Shown here: positions 2,282 through 12,899 of the stretch, piece after piece
Position numbering within the stretch: the stretch's first letter is position 1
Layout: every line of letters begins with the position of its first letter
DNA from: Oscillospiraceae bacterium
GTDB lineage: Bacteria > Bacillota > Clostridia > Lachnospirales > Lachnospiraceae
DNA: 64,000 nucleotides
NCBI GenBank assembly: GCA_963617415.1
Contig: CAVEOK010000007.1
Coordinates: 11,692-75,691 of the forward strand
Reading direction: 5' to 3'
The notes under the pieces: model-generated
Told to the model about the DNA's origin: nothing
The model's input: the letters and a program-made list of their open reading frames with translations, nothing else
Database searches by the model: none
Program-made: the position numbers and the translations under genes

Positions 2282-4025
2282 GGATTTTAGAAGCAAAATT
2301 TTTGCAATGATGGATCATATGGAAAAGAACGGCGGTAAGATCACTGCAAATGTAGACGGCGAGGAAGTTGAAGCAAATACAGCAGAAGAGCAGCTGGCTC
2401 TTTTTATGATGCAGAGAGAGCAGGAAGCAGAGGCAAAGGCCAAGGAGGAAGAAGAGGCACTTGCAGCAAAGCTTGCGGAAGAAAAAGGAGCTGAGCCGGT
2501 AGAGGAAGAAGAAAAAGAAATGACAGATGAAGAAATCTTCCGTCAGAACGCTATTCATCATCATACAGGGGAAGCGGCTGCAGTGGGATCTGAGGAAAAG
2601 GAGTCAGAGGAGACAGAGGAGCCGGAGAAGAAGGCGAACCTTTGGGGCGGCAGATTTACAAAGCCGACAGAAAAGAAGGTATATGACTTTAATGCTTCCA
2701 TTCTTTTTGATCAGAGATTGTATTATCAGGATATTCTCGGATCCATGGCACACGCATCCATGCTGGGCAAGGTTGGCGTTCTGACCAAGGAAGAGAGTGA
2801 TTCTATCGTTCATACACTGGCAGAGATTCAGGAAGAAATTTCAGAGGGGAAGCTGCAGATCACGGATGCTTATGAGGATATTCACAGCTTCGTGGAGGCA
2901 CAGCTGATCGAGCGTCTTGGAGATACAGGCAAGAAGGTTCATACGGGACGAAGCAGAAATGATCAGGTTGCCCTTGATATGAGAATGTACATCAGAGGAG
3001 AGATTCTGGAGACAGATCATCTTCTTTTGAATCTCCTGGATGTGCTGTATGATCTGATGAAGGAAAATCTGGATACCATTATGCCGGGCTTTACCCATCT
3101 GCAGAAGGCACAGCCGACAACGCTGGCACATCATCTGGGTGCTTATTTTGAGATGTTTAAGAGAGACCGCAGCCGGATGGAGGACACCTATCACAGAATG
3201 AACTATTGTCCCCTCGGATCCGGTGCTTTTGCCGGAACGACTTATCCGCTGGATCGTTCCTATACAGCAAAGATGCTGGGCTTTTATGGTCCGACTTTGA
3301 ACAGTATGGATGGCGTTTCGGACAGGGATTATCTGATCGATTTCCTGTCTGCTCTGGCTGAGATCATGATGCATCTGAGCAGATTCTCAGAAGAGGTGAT
3401 CCTTTGGAATTCCAATGAATACCGCTTTATCGAGATTGATGATGCTTATAGTACGGGAAGTTCCATCATGCCGCAGAAAAAGAACCCGGATATTGCCGAG
3501 CTGGTAAGAGGAAAGACCGGACGAGTTTATGGCGCACTGATGTCTCTCCTGACAACGATGAAAGGCATTCCGCTTGCCTATAATAAAGATATGCAGGAGG
3601 ACAAGGAGATTGCCTTTGATGCCATTGATACGGTGAAGATCTGTCTGGAGCTTTTTGCAGATATGATGAAGACCATGAAGTTCAATAAGGATCGCATGAA
3701 AAAGAGTGCGGCGGGCGGCTTTACCAATGCGACAGATGCAGCAGATTATCTGGTTGGAAAGGGTGTGCCTTTCCGTGATGCCCATGGTATTATCGGTCGT
3801 CTGGTTCTCTACGGAATCGAGCAGGATAAGGCAATCGATGAGATGAGCCTGGAGGAGCTGAAGGCCATCAGTGATGTTTTTGAAGAGGATGTATATGATG
3901 CTATTTCCATGGAAACCTGTGTAAGCAAGCGTCTTACGGTAGGTGCACCCGGAAAAGAGGCCATGGAAGCTGTTCTGATGGAATACAGCTCTTATCTGGA
4001 TCGGGATTGGCAGGATGAAATCTGA
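2274..4025 (+). CDS. argH: argininosuccinate lyase with a ~120-aa acidic N-terminal extension
   Basis: The canonical ArgH sequence runs from LWGGRFTKP (nt 2640) onward, with GSSIMPQKKNPD and other fumarate-lyase signatures. The frame is open back to the ATG at 2274. Confidence 0.9.
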   Translation: MAEDFRSKIFAMMDHMEKNGGKITANVDGEEVEANTAEEQLALFMMQREQEAEAKAKEEEEALAAKLAEEKGAEPVEEEEKEMTDEEIFRQNAIHHHTGEAAAVGSEEKESEETEEPEKKANLWGGRFTKPTEKKVYDFNASILFDQRLYYQDILGSMAHASMLGKVGVLTKEESDSIVHTLAEIQEEISEGKLQITDAYEDIHSFVEAQLIERLGDTGKKVHTGRSRNDQVALDMRMYIRGEILETDHLLLNLLDVLYDLMKENLDTIMPGFTHLQKAQPTTLAHHLGAYFEMFKRDRSRMEDTYHRMNYCPLGSGAFAGTTYPLDRSYTAKMLGFYGPTLNSMDGVSDRDYLIDFLSALAEIMMHLSRFSEEVILWNSNEYRFIEIDDAYSTGSSIMPQKKNPDIAELVRGKTGRVYGALMSLLTTMKGIPLAYNKDMQEDKEIAFDAIDTVKICLELFADMMKTMKFNKDRMKKSAAGGFTNATDAADYLVGKGVPFRDAHGIIGRLVLYGIEQDKAIDEMSLEELKAISDVFEEDVYDAISMETCVSKRLTVGAPGKEAMEAVLMEYSSYLDRDWQDEI

Positions 4026-10128: not shown

Positions 10129-10195
10129 AAAGCTAATTTTGTTAGTTGACAAATTTATATATGCGTGGTAACTTTTAGAAAACAATAAATATCAG

Positions 10196-10482
10196 ATAAA
10201 ACCGATGATCGAGAGAAGTAGGCATGATGAAATGCGCACAGAGAGCTGCAGATGGTGGGATTGCAGCGGCAGGGAATATGCTGAATGGACTCGTGAGGGC
10301 AGATTGAACGCTGTATGATATGGCAAGTAGGTACTGACGGAATCCAACCGTTAATATGGAACGCACATGATGGTGTGCGATAGAGTGGCCGATTGATTCG
10401 GCAATATGGGTGGCACCGCAGAAGGTTATAGCTTCTGTCCCAGGATTTTGCAATATGCAGATCCGGGACAGGAGCTTTTTTT
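10196..10482 (+). promoter_or_regulatory. T-box riboswitch leader, specifier UGG (Trp)
   Basis: K-turn GAUGA (10204-10208) with a 3' partner UGAGG. AGUA in the 5' half of the specifier loop. AGAGAG bulge (10240-10245). Distal GGUG (10254-10257). The 3' half of the specifier loop is GAA-UGG-A (10283-10289), laid out like glyQS GAA-GGC-A. T-box motif AAUAUGGGUGGCACCGCAGAAGG (10403-10425). Terminator hairpin 10430-10476 followed by U7. An upstream TTGACA lies at 10146. Confidence 0.85.
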
Positions 10483-10608
10483 ATCGTATAGGACTTCGTT
10501 CCTATACGATAAAAAGCTCCGCAGGGATCGCACTGCGGCGGATAGGAATTGTGTCGCTAGAGCGACCCGCCGCAGGCGGAGAATCCTGCGAGCAGGATTC
10601 TTTTTTTT
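10483..10608 (+). promoter_or_regulatory. second, non-T-box transcription attenuator / structured leader with its own intrinsic terminator
   Basis: 11-bp hairpin ATCGTATAGGA/TCCTATACGAT (10483-10510). 9-bp helix CTGCGGCGG/CCGCCGCAG (10533-10541 / 10567-10575) enclosing hairpin GTCGC-TAGA-GCGAC. Terminator GAATCCTG-CGAG-CAGGATTC (10581-10600) followed by T8. The 5' segment GCTCCGCAGGGAT (10516-10528) can pair imperfectly with the terminator's 5' arm. Confidence 0.55.
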
Positions 10609-10626
10609 ATCGCATAGGAGGAAAAG

Positions 10627-11721
10627 ATGAAACTGGAAAATTATGAAGTACATTTACCGAGCTATTCTATTGGAAATAGCATTTATGACAAGATCGGACC
10701 TGTCTGTGAATCTTATGGCAGAACAGTATTGATCATTGGCGGAAAAAGGGCCTTGGATGCAGCGCTGGATAAAATTTCGGCAGCAGTAGAGAAGACAAAT
10801 CTGGAGATTATCGGCACAGAGCTTTACGGAAAGGACTGTACCTTCGAAGGAGTTGAAAAGCTGCGGGCACTGCCCTCCTATCAGGAGGCAGATATGGTTT
10901 TCGGTGTTGGAGGAGGCAAGGCTCTGGATACGGTAAAATGTCTCTGTATTACGGATGACAAGCCGGTCTTTACCTTCCCGACTATTGCCTCAAACTGTGC
11001 AGCCTGCACAGCGGTATCCATTATGTATAAGGAGGATGGCAGCTTCCTGATGCCGGATTTCTATGTTCGTCCGGCTATGCATGCCTTTATTGATACGGAG
11101 ATCATCGCCAAGGCACCTGCCTGCTATATGTGGGCTGGAATTGGTGATACCTATGCCAAATTTTATGAGGCAACTATTTCTTCCCGTGATGAGAGACTGG
11201 AGCATTTTACGGCAGTGGGTCTTGCAGTTTCCAAAATGTGTCTGGATCCGCTTCTTGACTACGGAGAAAAGGGCTTTTCGGATCACCAAAAGGGTATTTC
11301 TTCTTATGAAGTGGAACAGCTGATTCTGGCAATTGTTGTTACTACTGGTATTGCATCCATCTTCCTGACAAAGGATTTTACGCCGGATTATAACAGCGGC
11401 TTGGCGCATGCAGTGTTTTATGCCCTGACCTCTTATCCAATCATTGAGGAAAAGCATCTGCACGGAGAGGTTGTAGGATTTGGTGTTCTTTTGGCTCTGC
11501 TTGTTGATGGACAGACAGAAGAATTTGAAAAGATCTATCAGCTGAATAAGGCAATTAAACTGCCGGTTTCTCTTGAAGAAATTGAAATTTCAAAGGAGCA
11601 GTGGGAGGAAACCATAAAGCTGATTCCGCAGATGTCCGACATCGCACATTATCCTTATGCAGTTACACCTCAGATGCTGGCAGATGCCATGCAGGCACTT
11701 GAGAAAAGAAATAGGAGCTGA
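10627..11721 (+). CDS. glycerol-dehydrogenase-like (GldA / iron-ADH / DHQS-like superfamily) oxidoreductase
   Basis: GGGKALDTVK nucleotide-binding block. Candidate metal ligands at GIGDTYAKFYE (Asp), LAHAVFY (His) and HLHGEVVGFG (His). Confidence 0.75.
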   Translation: MKLENYEVHLPSYSIGNSIYDKIGPVCESYGRTVLIIGGKRALDAALDKISAAVEKTNLEIIGTELYGKDCTFEGVEKLRALPSYQEADMVFGVGGGKALDTVKCLCITDDKPVFTFPTIASNCAACTAVSIMYKEDGSFLMPDFYVRPAMHAFIDTEIIAKAPACYMWAGIGDTYAKFYEATISSRDERLEHFTAVGLAVSKMCLDPLLDYGEKGFSDHQKGISSYEVEQLILAIVVTTGIASIFLTKDFTPDYNSGLAHAVFYALTSYPIIEEKHLHGEVVGFGVLLALLVDGQTEEFEKIYQLNKAIKLPVSLEEIEISKEQWEETIKLIPQMSDIAHYPYAVTPQMLADAMQALEKRNRS

Positions 11722-11726
11722 TCAAT

Positions 11727-12899
11727 ATGAACAAACAAGGAAAAACAAAATCTCTTATTCTGGGGGTTGCCTTTATCTGGTTTACCACTCACTTTGGAGG
11801 CGGTTTCGCATCCGGCGCTCAGATTTATACCTACTATGTAAAATACGGAATTTACTGCCTTTTTATGCCGGCGTTGGCTATGCTTTATAATGCGGTATTT
11901 TTTGCATATTGCCTTCGCTTTGCCCGTAAGCATGAGGTTTATGATTACCGTTCTTACAACAATGCATTTTATGGCAGATTTGCCCCGATCTTTTCCAATC
12001 TTTTTGAGCTGCTTTATCTCTGTGTGATGTGTGTTGCCCCGGCAGTGGCTTTTGCTACCGGAGGCGCGACCTTAAGCACTCTGACGGGAATGCCTTATCT
12101 GCTTTGCACCCTGATCATTGGTCTCTTTATTTTTCTTGTAGCGATTTTTGGTACGGATCTGGTTCGAAAGGTTGCAACCGTATTGTCAGTCTGCATTATT
12201 GCAGGACTTTTGATCGTGTATATTCCTAATATCATCAGTGGCTCCTCTGCAATTGCGCAGAGCATACAGGAGATGAGTGCACAGCCGGCACCCTTTGGAA
12301 AGGCACTTTATGCAGCCTTCCTCTACGGTACCTTCCAGCTTTCGAATGTAGCAGTTTTTGTGCAGCATGCAAAATCCTTTGAAAAGCCCAATGAGGCCAT
12401 AAAGAGTATGGGAATCGGCTGGATCATCAATGCCCTGCTCATGATCATGGTTGTGCTGGGTCTGCTTTCCGTTAGTTCTGATCCGGAGATTGCCCAGCAG
12501 AGCATTCCGACTCTTTTCATGGTACAAAACGGAGTAGGAAAAGCGCTTCTGACGCCCTTGATCTCCATCCTGATCATTCTTGGCGCGGTTTCTACGGCAG
12601 TCAATATGGTGGCGGCTATGGTAAAGCGTGTTGACAGCGGTATGGATCAGCTTGCTTTGGCAAAGAAGAAGACTGAAAGGGAAGAAAAAGATAAGGAAAA
12701 AAAGATCACTTCCCGCCAGATTCTGATTGCCTTGATCTGCTGTATTGTTGATTTTGGAATTGCCCAGTTCGGTCTGCTGACTCTGATCCAAAAGGCATAT
12801 AGTGCTCTGGCTTATCTGGCTATTCCGGTCATCCTGATTCCCTATATCATTCACATGATCGCAACACGTTTTGATACAAAGAAAGTTAAGAATCTGTAA
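11727..12899 (+). CDS. polytopic membrane protein, YkvI-like putative transporter
   Basis: About 11 hydrophobic segments. The N-terminus FIWFTTHFGGGFASGAQ resembles the YkvI/COG3949 family. It starts 6 nt after the upstream gene. Confidence 0.55.
   Translation: MNKQGKTKSLILGVAFIWFTTHFGGGFASGAQIYTYYVKYGIYCLFMPALAMLYNAVFFAYCLRFARKHEVYDYRSYNNAFYGRFAPIFSNLFELLYLCVMCVAPAVAFATGGATLSTLTGMPYLLCTLIIGLFIFLVAIFGTDLVRKVATVLSVCIIAGLLIVYIPNIISGSSAIAQSIQEMSAQPAPFGKALYAAFLYGTFQLSNVAVFVQHAKSFEKPNEAIKSMGIGWIINALLMIMVVLGLLSVSSDPEIAQQSIPTLFMVQNGVGKALLTPLISILIILGAVSTAVNMVAAMVKRVDSGMDQLALAKKKTEREEKDKEKKITSRQILIALICCIVDFGIAQFGLLTLIQKAYSALAYLAIPVILIPYIIHMIATRFDTKKVKNL

What the first reader, a model, noticed from the sequence alone, without database searches (positions are those of the whole stretch)
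10196..12899. Trp-specific T-box controls a GldA-like dehydrogenase and a YkvI-like permease rather than trp or trpS genes
Stem I can be threaded base-for-base on the B. subtilis glyQS layout. The K-turn is GAUGA. The lower helix is CGAG/CUCG. The specifier loop 5' side is AGAAGUA and its 3' side is GAA-UGG-A. The upper helix is GGCAU/AUGCU. An AGAGAG bulge and a distal GGUG follow. This places UGG (Trp) in the specifier position. The antiterminator bulge reads UGGC (10411-10414), and its variable C would pair with a G73 discriminator, which bacterial tRNA-Trp carries. The regulated genes are a metal-dependent polyol/hydroxy-acid dehydrogenase-like protein and a putative transporter, separated by 6 nt. 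Induction by uncharged tRNA-Trp suggests they supply Trp. One possibility is uptake and oxidation of an indole hydroxy-acid or alcohol precursor, but that function is inference only.
Basis: partly seen in the sequence, partly recalled or inferred. Interest (0 to 1): 0.6.

Follow-up and report, generated by a model that had tools for sequence, protein, structure and literature searches.

The report
Tryptophan T-box controlling dehydrogenase-permease operon
A genuine tryptophan-starvation RNA switch turns on a conserved two-gene unit (an unusual zinc dehydrogenase and a membrane permease) in gut Lachnospiraceae. Comparison with relatives suggests an undescribed route that makes tryptophan from an imported hydroxy-acid such as indole-lactate.

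Summary
Rfam places a full-length T-box at 10196-10445 (113 bits, E 3e-24). The covariance alignment reads GAA-UGG-A-CUCG in the specifier loop and UGGC in the antiterminator bulge. The genome's tRNA-Trp(CCA) has G73. The genome's other UGG/UGGC T-box precedes trpE, which serves as an internal control.

The switch controls a 364-aa GldA-family Zn/NAD dehydrogenase and a 390-aa YkvI-like APC-type permease. These two genes are adjacent in 76 of 80 orthologous loci. Of 74 loci with enough upstream sequence, 49 carry a T-box. All 49 have UGG plus a purine, a covarying helix and UGGC.

The function is inferred. The dehydrogenase is not a true glycerol dehydrogenase: it scores below the curated cut-off and the Asp of GldA's STDAP motif is a Cys. 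Its wider clade sits beside amino-acid-type importers and aminotransferases. The clade is split by T-box specificity. Trp T-boxes precede the dehydrogenase plus a TrpXYZ-type ABC importer. Ile T-boxes precede the dehydrogenase, once together with a YkvI-like permease and IlvE. This pattern fits salvage by 2-hydroxy-acid to 2-oxo-acid to amino acid.

At least eight orthologous operons have swapped the T-box for a nitrogen-regulon, ANTAR-like leader. I found no literature describing this operon.

The parts
10146..10174 (+). Likely promoter: TTGACA (10146-10151), 17-nt spacer, TAACTT (10169-10174) preceded by TG
   Evidence: Read directly from the sequence. The consensus scan did not list it because the -10 hexamer matches only 3 of 6. 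This part is inferred.
10196..10445 (+). T-box leader: Stem I, Stem III and antiterminator
   Evidence: RF00230, 113.2 bits, E 2.9e-24, full model length.
10286..10288 (+). Specifier codon UGG (Trp), followed by purine A at 10289 and the 3' strand of the basal helix, CUCG
   Evidence: cmscan alignment. The codon is invariant in all 50 aligned T-boxes while the helix covaries.
10411..10414 (+). T-box bulge UGGC, complementary to the G73-C-C-A end of tRNA-Trp
   Evidence: tRNA-Trp has G73.
10432..10482 (+). Intrinsic terminator of the T-box. The stem is 10432-10474, followed by C and U7. Its 5' arm is the 3' arm of the antiterminator.
   Evidence: Folds at -25.9 kcal/mol, z = -5.4. It is conserved in the orthologues.
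10485..10612 (+). Inserted copy of a multi-copy repeat element of about 110-120 nt. It ends in a hairpin (10578-10600) followed by U8 (10601-10608).
   Evidence: There are 19 further copies in the genome at 80-97% identity. The hairpin folds at -13.8 kcal/mol. The U-run is interrupted in the L006 and L007 copies.
10616..10621 (+). Ribosome-binding site AGGAGG for the dehydrogenase gene
   Evidence: Read from the sequence.
10627..11721 (+). 364-aa Zn/NAD dehydrogenase of a distinct GldA-related clade
   Evidence: Pfam Fe-ADH and Fe-ADH_2. NF006941 scores 196.8 bits, below its cut-off of 336. It is about 30% identical to E. coli GldA, with the metal ligands kept and the Asp of the STDAP motif replaced by Cys.
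11727..12899 (+). 390-aa YkvI-like permease, a divergent member of the APC/LeuT-fold superfamily
   Evidence: It has no Pfam hit itself. JGI names a 95%-identical protein 'membrane protein YkvI'. Of 52 diverse relatives, 6 hit AA_permease_2, 3 hit Nramp and 1 hits SSF. It is adjacent to the dehydrogenase in 76 of 80 loci.

Best explanation
Shown by computation: this is a transcription-attenuating T-box riboswitch specific for tRNA-Trp. When uncharged tRNA-Trp pairs its CCA anticodon with UGG (10286-10288) and its G73-CCA end with UGGC (10411-10414), the antiterminator is stabilised. RNA polymerase then reads through the terminator at 10432-10482 into a translationally coupled two-gene operon.

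Inferred from comparative genomics: the operon is a tryptophan-salvage module. The YkvI-like APC-type permease imports an indole 2-hydroxy-acid, most plausibly indole-3-lactate, which other gut bacteria release in quantity. The Zn/NAD(P) dehydrogenase oxidises it to indole-3-pyruvate. A housekeeping aminotransferase then makes tryptophan.

The dehydrogenase belongs to a clade whose branches match the amino acid of the T-box that controls them (Trp or Ile). It is paired with interchangeable importers: YkvI-like, TrpXYZ-type ABC, or SBF.

My odds for each layer: Trp T-box control 0.95; a role in acquiring Trp from an imported precursor 0.5; indole-3-lactate as that precursor about 0.35.
For: T-box identity and specificity. 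The UGG/UGGC T-box on trpE in the same genome is an internal control.

Conservation: 49 of 74 assessable orthologous loci have a T-box. All have GAA-UGG-R, a covarying helix and UGGC.

The dehydrogenase keeps the Zn ligands (D/H/H) and the GGGK motif but loses the Asp of GldA's STDAP motif (PTIASTDAP becomes PTIASNCAA). It scores below the GldA cut-off and also matches the YbdH-type oxidoreductase model.

Distant clade members:
- Trp T-box, then dehydrogenase, then PF04392 binding protein, permease and ATPase, in four genomes.
- Ile (AUC) T-box, then YkvI-like permease (28% identical to this one, E 5e-33), then IlvE (494 bits), then dehydrogenase.
- Ile T-box, then SBF symporter, then dehydrogenase.
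- Class-I aminotransferase overlapping the start of the dehydrogenase gene.

In the tree, the Trp-linked dehydrogenases form one clade (98/98 support) that excludes the Ile-linked ones.

In two Enterocloster loci the T-box controls the dehydrogenase alone, so the enzyme is the core of the module.
Against: The window's operon contains no aminotransferase.

The organism is a Trp prototroph on paper: trpE, G, C, F, B and A lie behind the other T-box and trpD lies elsewhere. Salvage is therefore not essential.

At least 8 orthologous operons sit instead behind a nitrogen-regulon leader. That is odd for a nitrogen-free substrate.

Known aromatic-lactate dehydrogenases belong to other folds.

The substrate chemistry is inferred only from gene context and from the match to a hydroxy-acid-type relative.

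The repeat element's U8 hairpin between the T-box and the RBS may blunt induction in this strain.
Confidence: 0.5

Rival explanations
1. The permease is simply a tryptophan (or aromatic amino-acid) importer, as with other T-box-controlled transporters. The dehydrogenase has an accessory role that does not convert the imported molecule into Trp.
For: T-box-controlled amino-acid transporters are common (PMC2494555). In L173 a YkvI-like paralogue stands alone behind a Leu T-box with no dehydrogenase. Relatives of the family hit AA_permease_2.
Against: The dehydrogenase is the first gene of the operon. It is kept next to three unrelated importer types and next to aminotransferases. In Enterocloster it is T-box-controlled without any permease. 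Its phylogeny tracks the T-box amino acid.
Confidence: 0.2
2. The module runs in the catabolic direction. Trp is transaminated, keeping the nitrogen as glutamate. Indole-3-pyruvate is reduced by the dehydrogenase to indole-3-lactate, which the permease exports.
For: Eight orthologous operons lie behind the leader that also precedes gdhA, glnA, asnA, purF and putrescine aminotransferase. The dehydrogenase reaction is reversible. Gut bacteria are known to make indole-lactate this way (PMC8556157, listed).
Against: A switch that fires when tRNA-Trp is uncharged would then destroy Trp exactly when it is scarce. Two thirds of the orthologues, and the TrpXYZ-linked clade, are under Trp T-boxes.
Confidence: 0.1
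3. The dehydrogenase acts on a different Trp-related alcohol or polyol, for example indole-3-glycerol, tryptophol/indole-3-acetaldehyde or an amino-alcohol, and not on a 2-hydroxy-acid.
For: GldA-family enzymes typically oxidise vicinal diols and amino-alcohols (my own knowledge). An earlier unchecked scan note proposes indole-3-glycerol scavenging behind another Trp T-box (e1-4208268).
Against: Linkage of the clade to IlvE and to a class-I aminotransferase points to a 2-oxo-acid product. No kinase or trpA/trpB gene is linked to it here.
Confidence: 0.12
4. It is an ordinary glycerol dehydrogenase, and the T-box linkage has no functional meaning.
For: The best NCBIfam and PDB matches are glycerol dehydrogenases.
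Against: It scores 196.8 bits against a cut-off of 336. The Asp of GldA's STDAP motif is replaced by a clade-wide Cys. The T-box linkage is kept in 49 loci and in a second family. No glycerol-catabolism genes are nearby.
Confidence: 0.03

Closest known systems
Trp-specific T-box leaders, e.g. the Lactococcus lactis trp operon and Bacillus subtilis rtpA-ycbK (both cited in PMC2494555), and the trpE leader of this same genome
   Same: They share Stem I with a K-turn, S-turn, UGG specifier plus purine, AG bay and distal loop. They also share the T-box bulge that pairs with the tRNA-Trp acceptor end, and competing antiterminator and terminator structures.
   Different: The regulated genes are neither trp biosynthesis genes, trpS, anti-TRAP nor a known Trp transporter. 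They are a dehydrogenase and a YkvI-like permease. A repeat element is inserted between the terminator and the RBS.
T-box-controlled TrpXYZ-type ABC importers (COG2984 / PF04392 binding protein)
   Same: Both are Trp T-box-controlled uptake modules. In four genomes of another family, the sister clade of this dehydrogenase is the first gene of such an operon.
   Different: This operon has no ABC components. Here the importer is a secondary carrier of the YkvI family.
Glycerol dehydrogenase GldA (PDB 5zxl, 1jq5)
   Same: The fold and length match. It has the NAD-binding GGGK motif and the Asp/His/His zinc ligands.
   Different: It is about 30% identical and scores below the family cut-off. STDAP becomes SNCAA (Asp to Cys). 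It has extra conserved motifs (AKxYE, DYNS) and an entirely different gene context.
Aromatic 2-hydroxy-acid dehydrogenases of gut bacteria: the Bifidobacterium aromatic lactate dehydrogenase (PMC8556157) and Clostridium sporogenes FldH (the latter from my own knowledge)
   Same: The proposed reaction, interconversion of indole-3-lactate and indole-3-pyruvate, is the same.
   Different: Those enzymes belong to the LDH or D-2-hydroxyacid dehydrogenase folds. They work in the reductive, catabolic direction and are not T-box controlled.
ANTAR antitermination leaders (EutV, NasR, AmiR; PMC3369931). This applies to the leader that replaces the T-box in eight orthologous loci.
   Same: It is a mini-hairpin with a hexaloop carrying A at position 1 and G at position 4. 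It overlaps an intrinsic terminator and sits in front of nitrogen-metabolism genes. One ANTAR protein is found in 12 of 14 genomes.
   Different: Only one hairpin is visible, and in several leaders there is no room for a second. The described ANTAR target is a dual hexaloop.

Membership tests
T-box riboswitch (Rfam RF00230) | Covariance-model score at or above the gathering threshold over the full model | tested here: met
   113.2 bits against 93, model positions 1-219 of 219.
T-box riboswitch (Rfam RF00230) | Stem I with a K-turn, a specifier loop with S-turn (AGUA...GAA), a codon followed by a purine, an AG bay and a distal loop | tested here: met
   All are present at the coordinates given. 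All are conserved in 49 orthologues.
T-box riboswitch (Rfam RF00230) | Mutually exclusive antiterminator (with UGGN bulge) and intrinsic terminator | tested here: met
   The two structures share the strand at 10432-10442. They fold at -12.2 and -25.9 kcal/mol, and the terminator is followed by U7.
Trp-specific T-box | Specifier UGG, and a bulge N that matches the discriminator of the genome's tRNA-Trp | tested here: met
   UGG at 10286-10288 and UGGC at 10411-10414. The tRNA-Trp has anticodon CCA and G73.
Trp-specific T-box | Read-through induced by uncharged tRNA-Trp or Trp starvation | not testable with these tools
No bench data exist.
Glycerol dehydrogenase GldA (NF006941 / NF047954) | Score at or above NCBI's curated cut-off | tested here: not met
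   196.8 bits against 336, and 155.8 bits against 700.
Glycerol dehydrogenase GldA (NF006941 / NF047954) | Zinc ligands Asp/His/His and the NAD-binding glycine motif | tested here: met
   The aligned motifs GIGD, AHA, HGE and GGGK are present.
Glycerol dehydrogenase GldA (NF006941 / NF047954) | Conserved Asp of the STDAP motif | tested here: not met
   It is Cys in this protein and in all 18 clade members aligned. That this Asp contacts the substrate in GldA is from my own memory of the 1jq5/1jqa work and was not checked here.
YkvI family (COG3949) / APC superfamily permease | Sequence membership | tested here: inconclusive
   There is no Pfam or NCBIfam model hit. JGI labels a 95%-identical protein YkvI. 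Of 52 relatives, 6 hit AA_permease_2, 3 Nramp and 1 SSF. The profile search against PDB gave only E 0.4 to an SSF carrier.
YkvI family (COG3949) / APC superfamily permease | LeuT-type fold | tested here: inconclusive
   The AlphaFold model is all-helical with about 12-13 helices, but its mean pLDDT is only 53. No fold search was run on it.
ANTAR target RNA (for the leader in the T-box-less orthologues) | Two tandem hexaloop hairpins (A1, G4), the second overlapping a terminator | tested here: not met
   One hexaloop hairpin with A1/G4 overlaps the terminator and covaries. No upstream partner hairpin is visible, and some leaders start too close to the promoter to hold one.

The most novel reading that the evidence does not exclude
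A widespread, undescribed class of amino-acid salvage operons exists in gut and other anaerobic Firmicutes. A dedicated GldA-related Zn dehydrogenase clade oxidises imported 2-hydroxy-acids released by neighbouring microbes (indole-lactate, 2-hydroxy-3-methylvalerate and others) to the 2-oxo-acids. Aminotransferases then convert these into Trp, Ile and other amino acids. Each branch of the enzyme clade is gated by the T-box of the matching amino acid. Each is served by interchangeable importers: YkvI-like, TrpXYZ-type ABC, SBF, or polar-amino-acid ABC.
Probability: 0.4. Interest if true: 0.78.

Novelty: new variant of a known kind. Interest (0 to 1): 0.62.

Why it matters
T-box specifiers are among the few sequence features that state which amino acid a downstream gene serves. 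Here the specifier assigns a Trp-supply role to two gene families that have no characterised member. One is a GldA-related dehydrogenase clade. The other is the YkvI permease family, which has no Pfam model.

If the salvage reading is right, abundant gut Lachnospiraceae (Dorea, Mediterraneibacter, Blautia, Anaerobutyricum and others) can turn indole-lactate back into tryptophan. Indole-lactate is a host-active metabolite made by bifidobacteria and lactobacilli. That would be a new cross-feeding link, and a sink for an immunologically relevant molecule.

The idea is directly testable with a two-gene complementation in a laboratory E. coli trp mutant.

The comparison also uncovered a compact nitrogen-regulon antiterminator leader in the same bacterial family.

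Tried and rejected
- Structure of the permease. AlphaFold2 on a 16-sequence alignment gave mean pLDDT 53, too poor for a fold search, so none was run. Sequence and profile searches of PDB gave nothing significant.
- Literature. Searches for YkvI with tryptophan, T-box with glycerol dehydrogenase, COG3949, T-box with Lachnospiraceae regulon, and T-box with indole-lactate found no description of this operon. Two T-box regulon papers do not mention it.
- Other known RNA families. Rfam at gathering level found none in 16 T-box-less loci.
- Pattern search for the short leader. Hits with one mismatch were mostly inside coding regions and no more frequent than the reversed-pattern control. A covariance model replaced this approach.
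- A tandem T-box plus nitrogen leader. None was found in 73 sources.
- The long spacers after the T-box in other loci. They are heterogeneous GC-rich inserts and not a shared second riboswitch.
- Informative neighbours of the dehydrogenase in Enterocloster and Lacrimispora loci. The neighbours are unrelated genes.
- Considered and rejected: that the dehydrogenase is AroB-like (it hits GldA over its full length), and that the genome lacks trpD (trpD is present on C24).
Full report
**1. The observation**

Rfam's covariance model places a complete T-box leader at window 10196-10445 on the + strand: 113.2 bits against a gathering score of 93, E 2.9e-24. The alignment puts GAA-UGG-A-CUCG on the 3' side of the specifier loop. 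The three bases aligned to the model's codon positions are UGG (10286-10288). They are followed by the usual purine and by CUCG, which pairs with CGAG at 10210-10213.

The antiterminator (-12.2 kcal/mol) and a strong terminator (stem 10432-10474, then C and U7; -25.9 kcal/mol, z = -5.4) share a strand.

The genome held for this window is 2.38 Mb in 103 contigs. It encodes one tRNA-Trp with anticodon CCA and discriminator G73, and CCA is not encoded. UGG therefore pairs with CCA, and UGGC pairs with G73-C-C-A.

A plausible promoter lies at 10146-10174, read from the sequence. The two ORFs are 10627-11721 and 11727-12899. The gap between them is 5 nt, not 6, and the second RBS lies inside the end of the first gene.

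**2. Internal control**

The genome has only five T-box matches. One of them, on contig 58, also reads GAA-UGG-A with a UGGC bulge. It precedes trpE (TIGR00564, 535 bits), trpG, trpC, trpF, trpB (626 bits) and trpA (254 bits). trpD lies on another contig (406 bits).

The same specifier layout therefore controls the canonical trp operon in this organism. On paper the organism is a Trp prototroph. The other T-boxes read UUC (Phe) and AUC (Ile), both with UGGU, and one is unclear.

**3. Conservation**

A scan of one genome per species returned 80 loci encoding dehydrogenase orthologues at 75-94% identity. They come mainly from gut Lachnospiraceae such as Dorea, Mediterraneibacter, Blautia, Anaerobutyricum, Coprococcus and Roseburia. 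Several MAG labels (Bacteroidaceae, Prevotella) look like binning errors.

The permease gene follows the dehydrogenase directly in 76 of the 80 loci. Of 74 loci with enough upstream sequence, 49 have a T-box within 400 nt. In all 50 T-boxes, counting the window, the loop reads GAA-UGG-R and the bulge reads UGGC. The basal helix changes in a compensatory way: CGAG/CUCG, GAAG/CUUC, AAAG/CUUU. That fixes the reading register independently of the model. No orthologous locus carries a T-box for another amino acid.

**4. The proteins**

The first protein hits Fe-ADH and Fe-ADH_2 and NCBI's glycerol dehydrogenase model over its full length. It scores only 196.8 bits against a cut-off of 336. It also matches the YbdH-type oxidoreductase model at 147 bits.

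Its best solved relatives are glycerol dehydrogenases at about 30% identity. The zinc ligands and the GGGK motif are kept. GldA's PTIASTDAP is PTIASNCAA here. The Asp-to-Cys change, with further motifs (AKxYE, DYNS), is shared by every member of the wider clade I aligned. It is therefore an active-looking metal dehydrogenase, but not a member of the GldA equivalog.

The second protein has no Pfam, NCBIfam or PDB sequence match. JGI calls a 95%-identical protein 'membrane protein YkvI'. An exhaustive HMMER search finds only 726 representative clusters. Among 52 diverse full-length relatives, six hit AA_permease_2 (best E 2e-11), three hit Nramp and one hits SSF. These are all LeuT-fold carriers. 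The AlphaFold model was too poor to use.

**5. What the module does: evidence from more distant relatives**

A class-wide search of about 400 genomes found 18 further homologues at 37-48% identity. I fetched and annotated their surroundings.

- In four genomes of one family, a Trp T-box (GAA-UGG-A) precedes the dehydrogenase, a PF04392 binding protein, a permease and an ATPase. This is the TrpXYZ-type importer. A small cupin gene follows.
- In another family, Ile T-boxes (AUC, UGGU) precede the dehydrogenase alone, or an SBF symporter plus the dehydrogenase.
- In a third family, an Ile T-box precedes a YkvI-like permease (28% identical to this one, E 5e-33), a branched-chain aminotransferase (IlvE, 494 bits against a cut-off of 307) and then the dehydrogenase. 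A Leu (CUA) T-box just upstream controls a second YkvI-like gene.
- In a Lachnospiraceae genome, a class-I aminotransferase overlaps the start of the dehydrogenase gene, and a membrane protein follows.
- Seven more homologues sit inside or next to operons that begin with an SBP_bac_3 (polar amino-acid ABC) binding protein.

A maximum-likelihood tree puts the Trp-linked enzymes (this clade plus the TrpXYZ-linked one) together with 98/98 support. The Ile-linked and ABC-embedded enzymes fall elsewhere. The sample is small.

An enzyme clade that recurs with importers and aminotransferases, and whose branches follow the T-box amino acid, is what a pathway of hydroxy-acid to oxo-acid to amino acid would look like. 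For the Trp branch the obvious substrate is indole-3-lactate.

This step is inference. No assay, transcript or structure supports it here. Earlier unchecked notes of this scan reached the same idea for LDH-family dehydrogenases linked to TrpXYZ. They also listed GldA-like plus TrpXYZ operons. I confirmed the latter arrangement independently in my own loci.

**6. Orthologues without a T-box**

Rfam finds no known RNA in 16 such loci. Eight of them share a short leader just downstream of a promoter, AGAUACAARGGCGUAU. Its 3' half is the 5' arm of a 13-bp terminator.

A covariance model of this leader finds the same element in 19 of 151 genomes of the family. It sits in front of:
- gdhA (749 bits);
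- glnA (528 bits);
- a GS-III-like gene;
- asnA;
- purF;
- putrescine aminotransferase (this arrangement is also found in the window's own genome, contig 31);
- gcvT (read from its sequence only, not scanned);
- other genes.

The conserved core folds as a 4-bp hairpin with a hexaloop that has A at position 1 and G at position 4. Across 25 instances, 97% of cells pair. There are nine double-sided changes against 1.8 in shuffles (0 of 500 shuffles reach that). Twelve of 14 genomes tested encode exactly one ANTAR protein, about 190 aa where the frame is complete.

This matches the ANTAR target described in PMC3369931, except that only one hairpin is present. In these species the operon therefore belongs to the nitrogen regulon. 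That is not obviously explained by salvage of a nitrogen-free acid, and I leave it open. The reverse reaction would fit nitrogen control but not T-box control.

Other loci show operator-like palindromes or, in L039, a decayed T-box.

**7. The spacer**

The 128 nt between the T-box terminator and the RBS is one copy of a repeat family. There are 19 more copies in this genome at 80-97% identity. Its last hairpin plus U8 looks like a second terminator. The same hairpin in the two closest relatives has a broken U-run. It is probably not a designed second attenuator, but it may reduce expression in this strain.

**8. Verdict**

The T-box and its Trp specificity are as secure as computation allows. 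Control of a dehydrogenase-permease pair is real and conserved, and I found no description of it in the literature I could search. The salvage mechanism is the best-supported reading at about even odds, and it is cheaply testable.

Noticed in passing
Loci L014, L017, L022, L032, L046, L061, L072, L079 (just upstream of the dehydrogenase gene); own genome contig C31:14816-14867 (-); about 25 further loci L129-L153: A compact nitrogen-regulon leader. It is a 4-bp hairpin with hexaloop A-A-R-G-G-C (A1, G4) overlapping an intrinsic terminator. It sits right after promoters of gdhA, glnA, asnA, purF, putrescine aminotransferase, gcvT and others. It is ANTAR-like but has a single hairpin. One ANTAR protein is found per genome in 12 of 14 genomes.
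   Followed up: yes
window 10485-10612: The spacer between the T-box terminator and the RBS is a copy of a repeat element of about 110-120 nt. There are 19 other copies in the genome at 80-97% identity. It ends in a hairpin plus U8 that resembles a terminator.
   Followed up: partly
L173:214-5624: Two adjacent T-box units in another Clostridia family. A Leu (CUA) T-box precedes a YkvI-like permease. An Ile (AUC) T-box precedes a YkvI-like permease, IlvE and the GldA-related dehydrogenase.
   Followed up: yes
L168, L170, L171, L174-L177: A third branch of the dehydrogenase clade lies beside an SBP_bac_3 (polar amino-acid ABC) binding-protein gene. In L168 the binding-protein and permease genes flank it. 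Its regulation is unknown.
   Followed up: partly
L039:about 3800-4000: A decayed T-box. Only a degenerate T-box sequence and the terminator remain upstream of the dehydrogenase orthologue.
   Followed up: no
L026 and L059 (Roseburia); L038 and L060: The regions upstream of the operon carry imperfect palindromes that look like protein operators, in place of an RNA leader.
   Followed up: no
L006, L007, L011, L017, L018, L021, L025, L028, L046: MAGs labelled Bacteroidaceae, Prevotella, Parabacteroides, Eggerthellaceae and Tidjanibacter carry this Firmicutes-type operon at about 77-94% identity. These contigs are probably mis-binned.
   Followed up: no
Own genome, L003 (C4:14776-15032): This T-box scores below the gathering threshold (83.8 bits) and I could not assign its specifier with confidence.
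   Followed up: no
L160:8494-8811: A small cupin protein ends the Trp T-box operon of dehydrogenase plus TrpXYZ-type importer.
   Followed up: no
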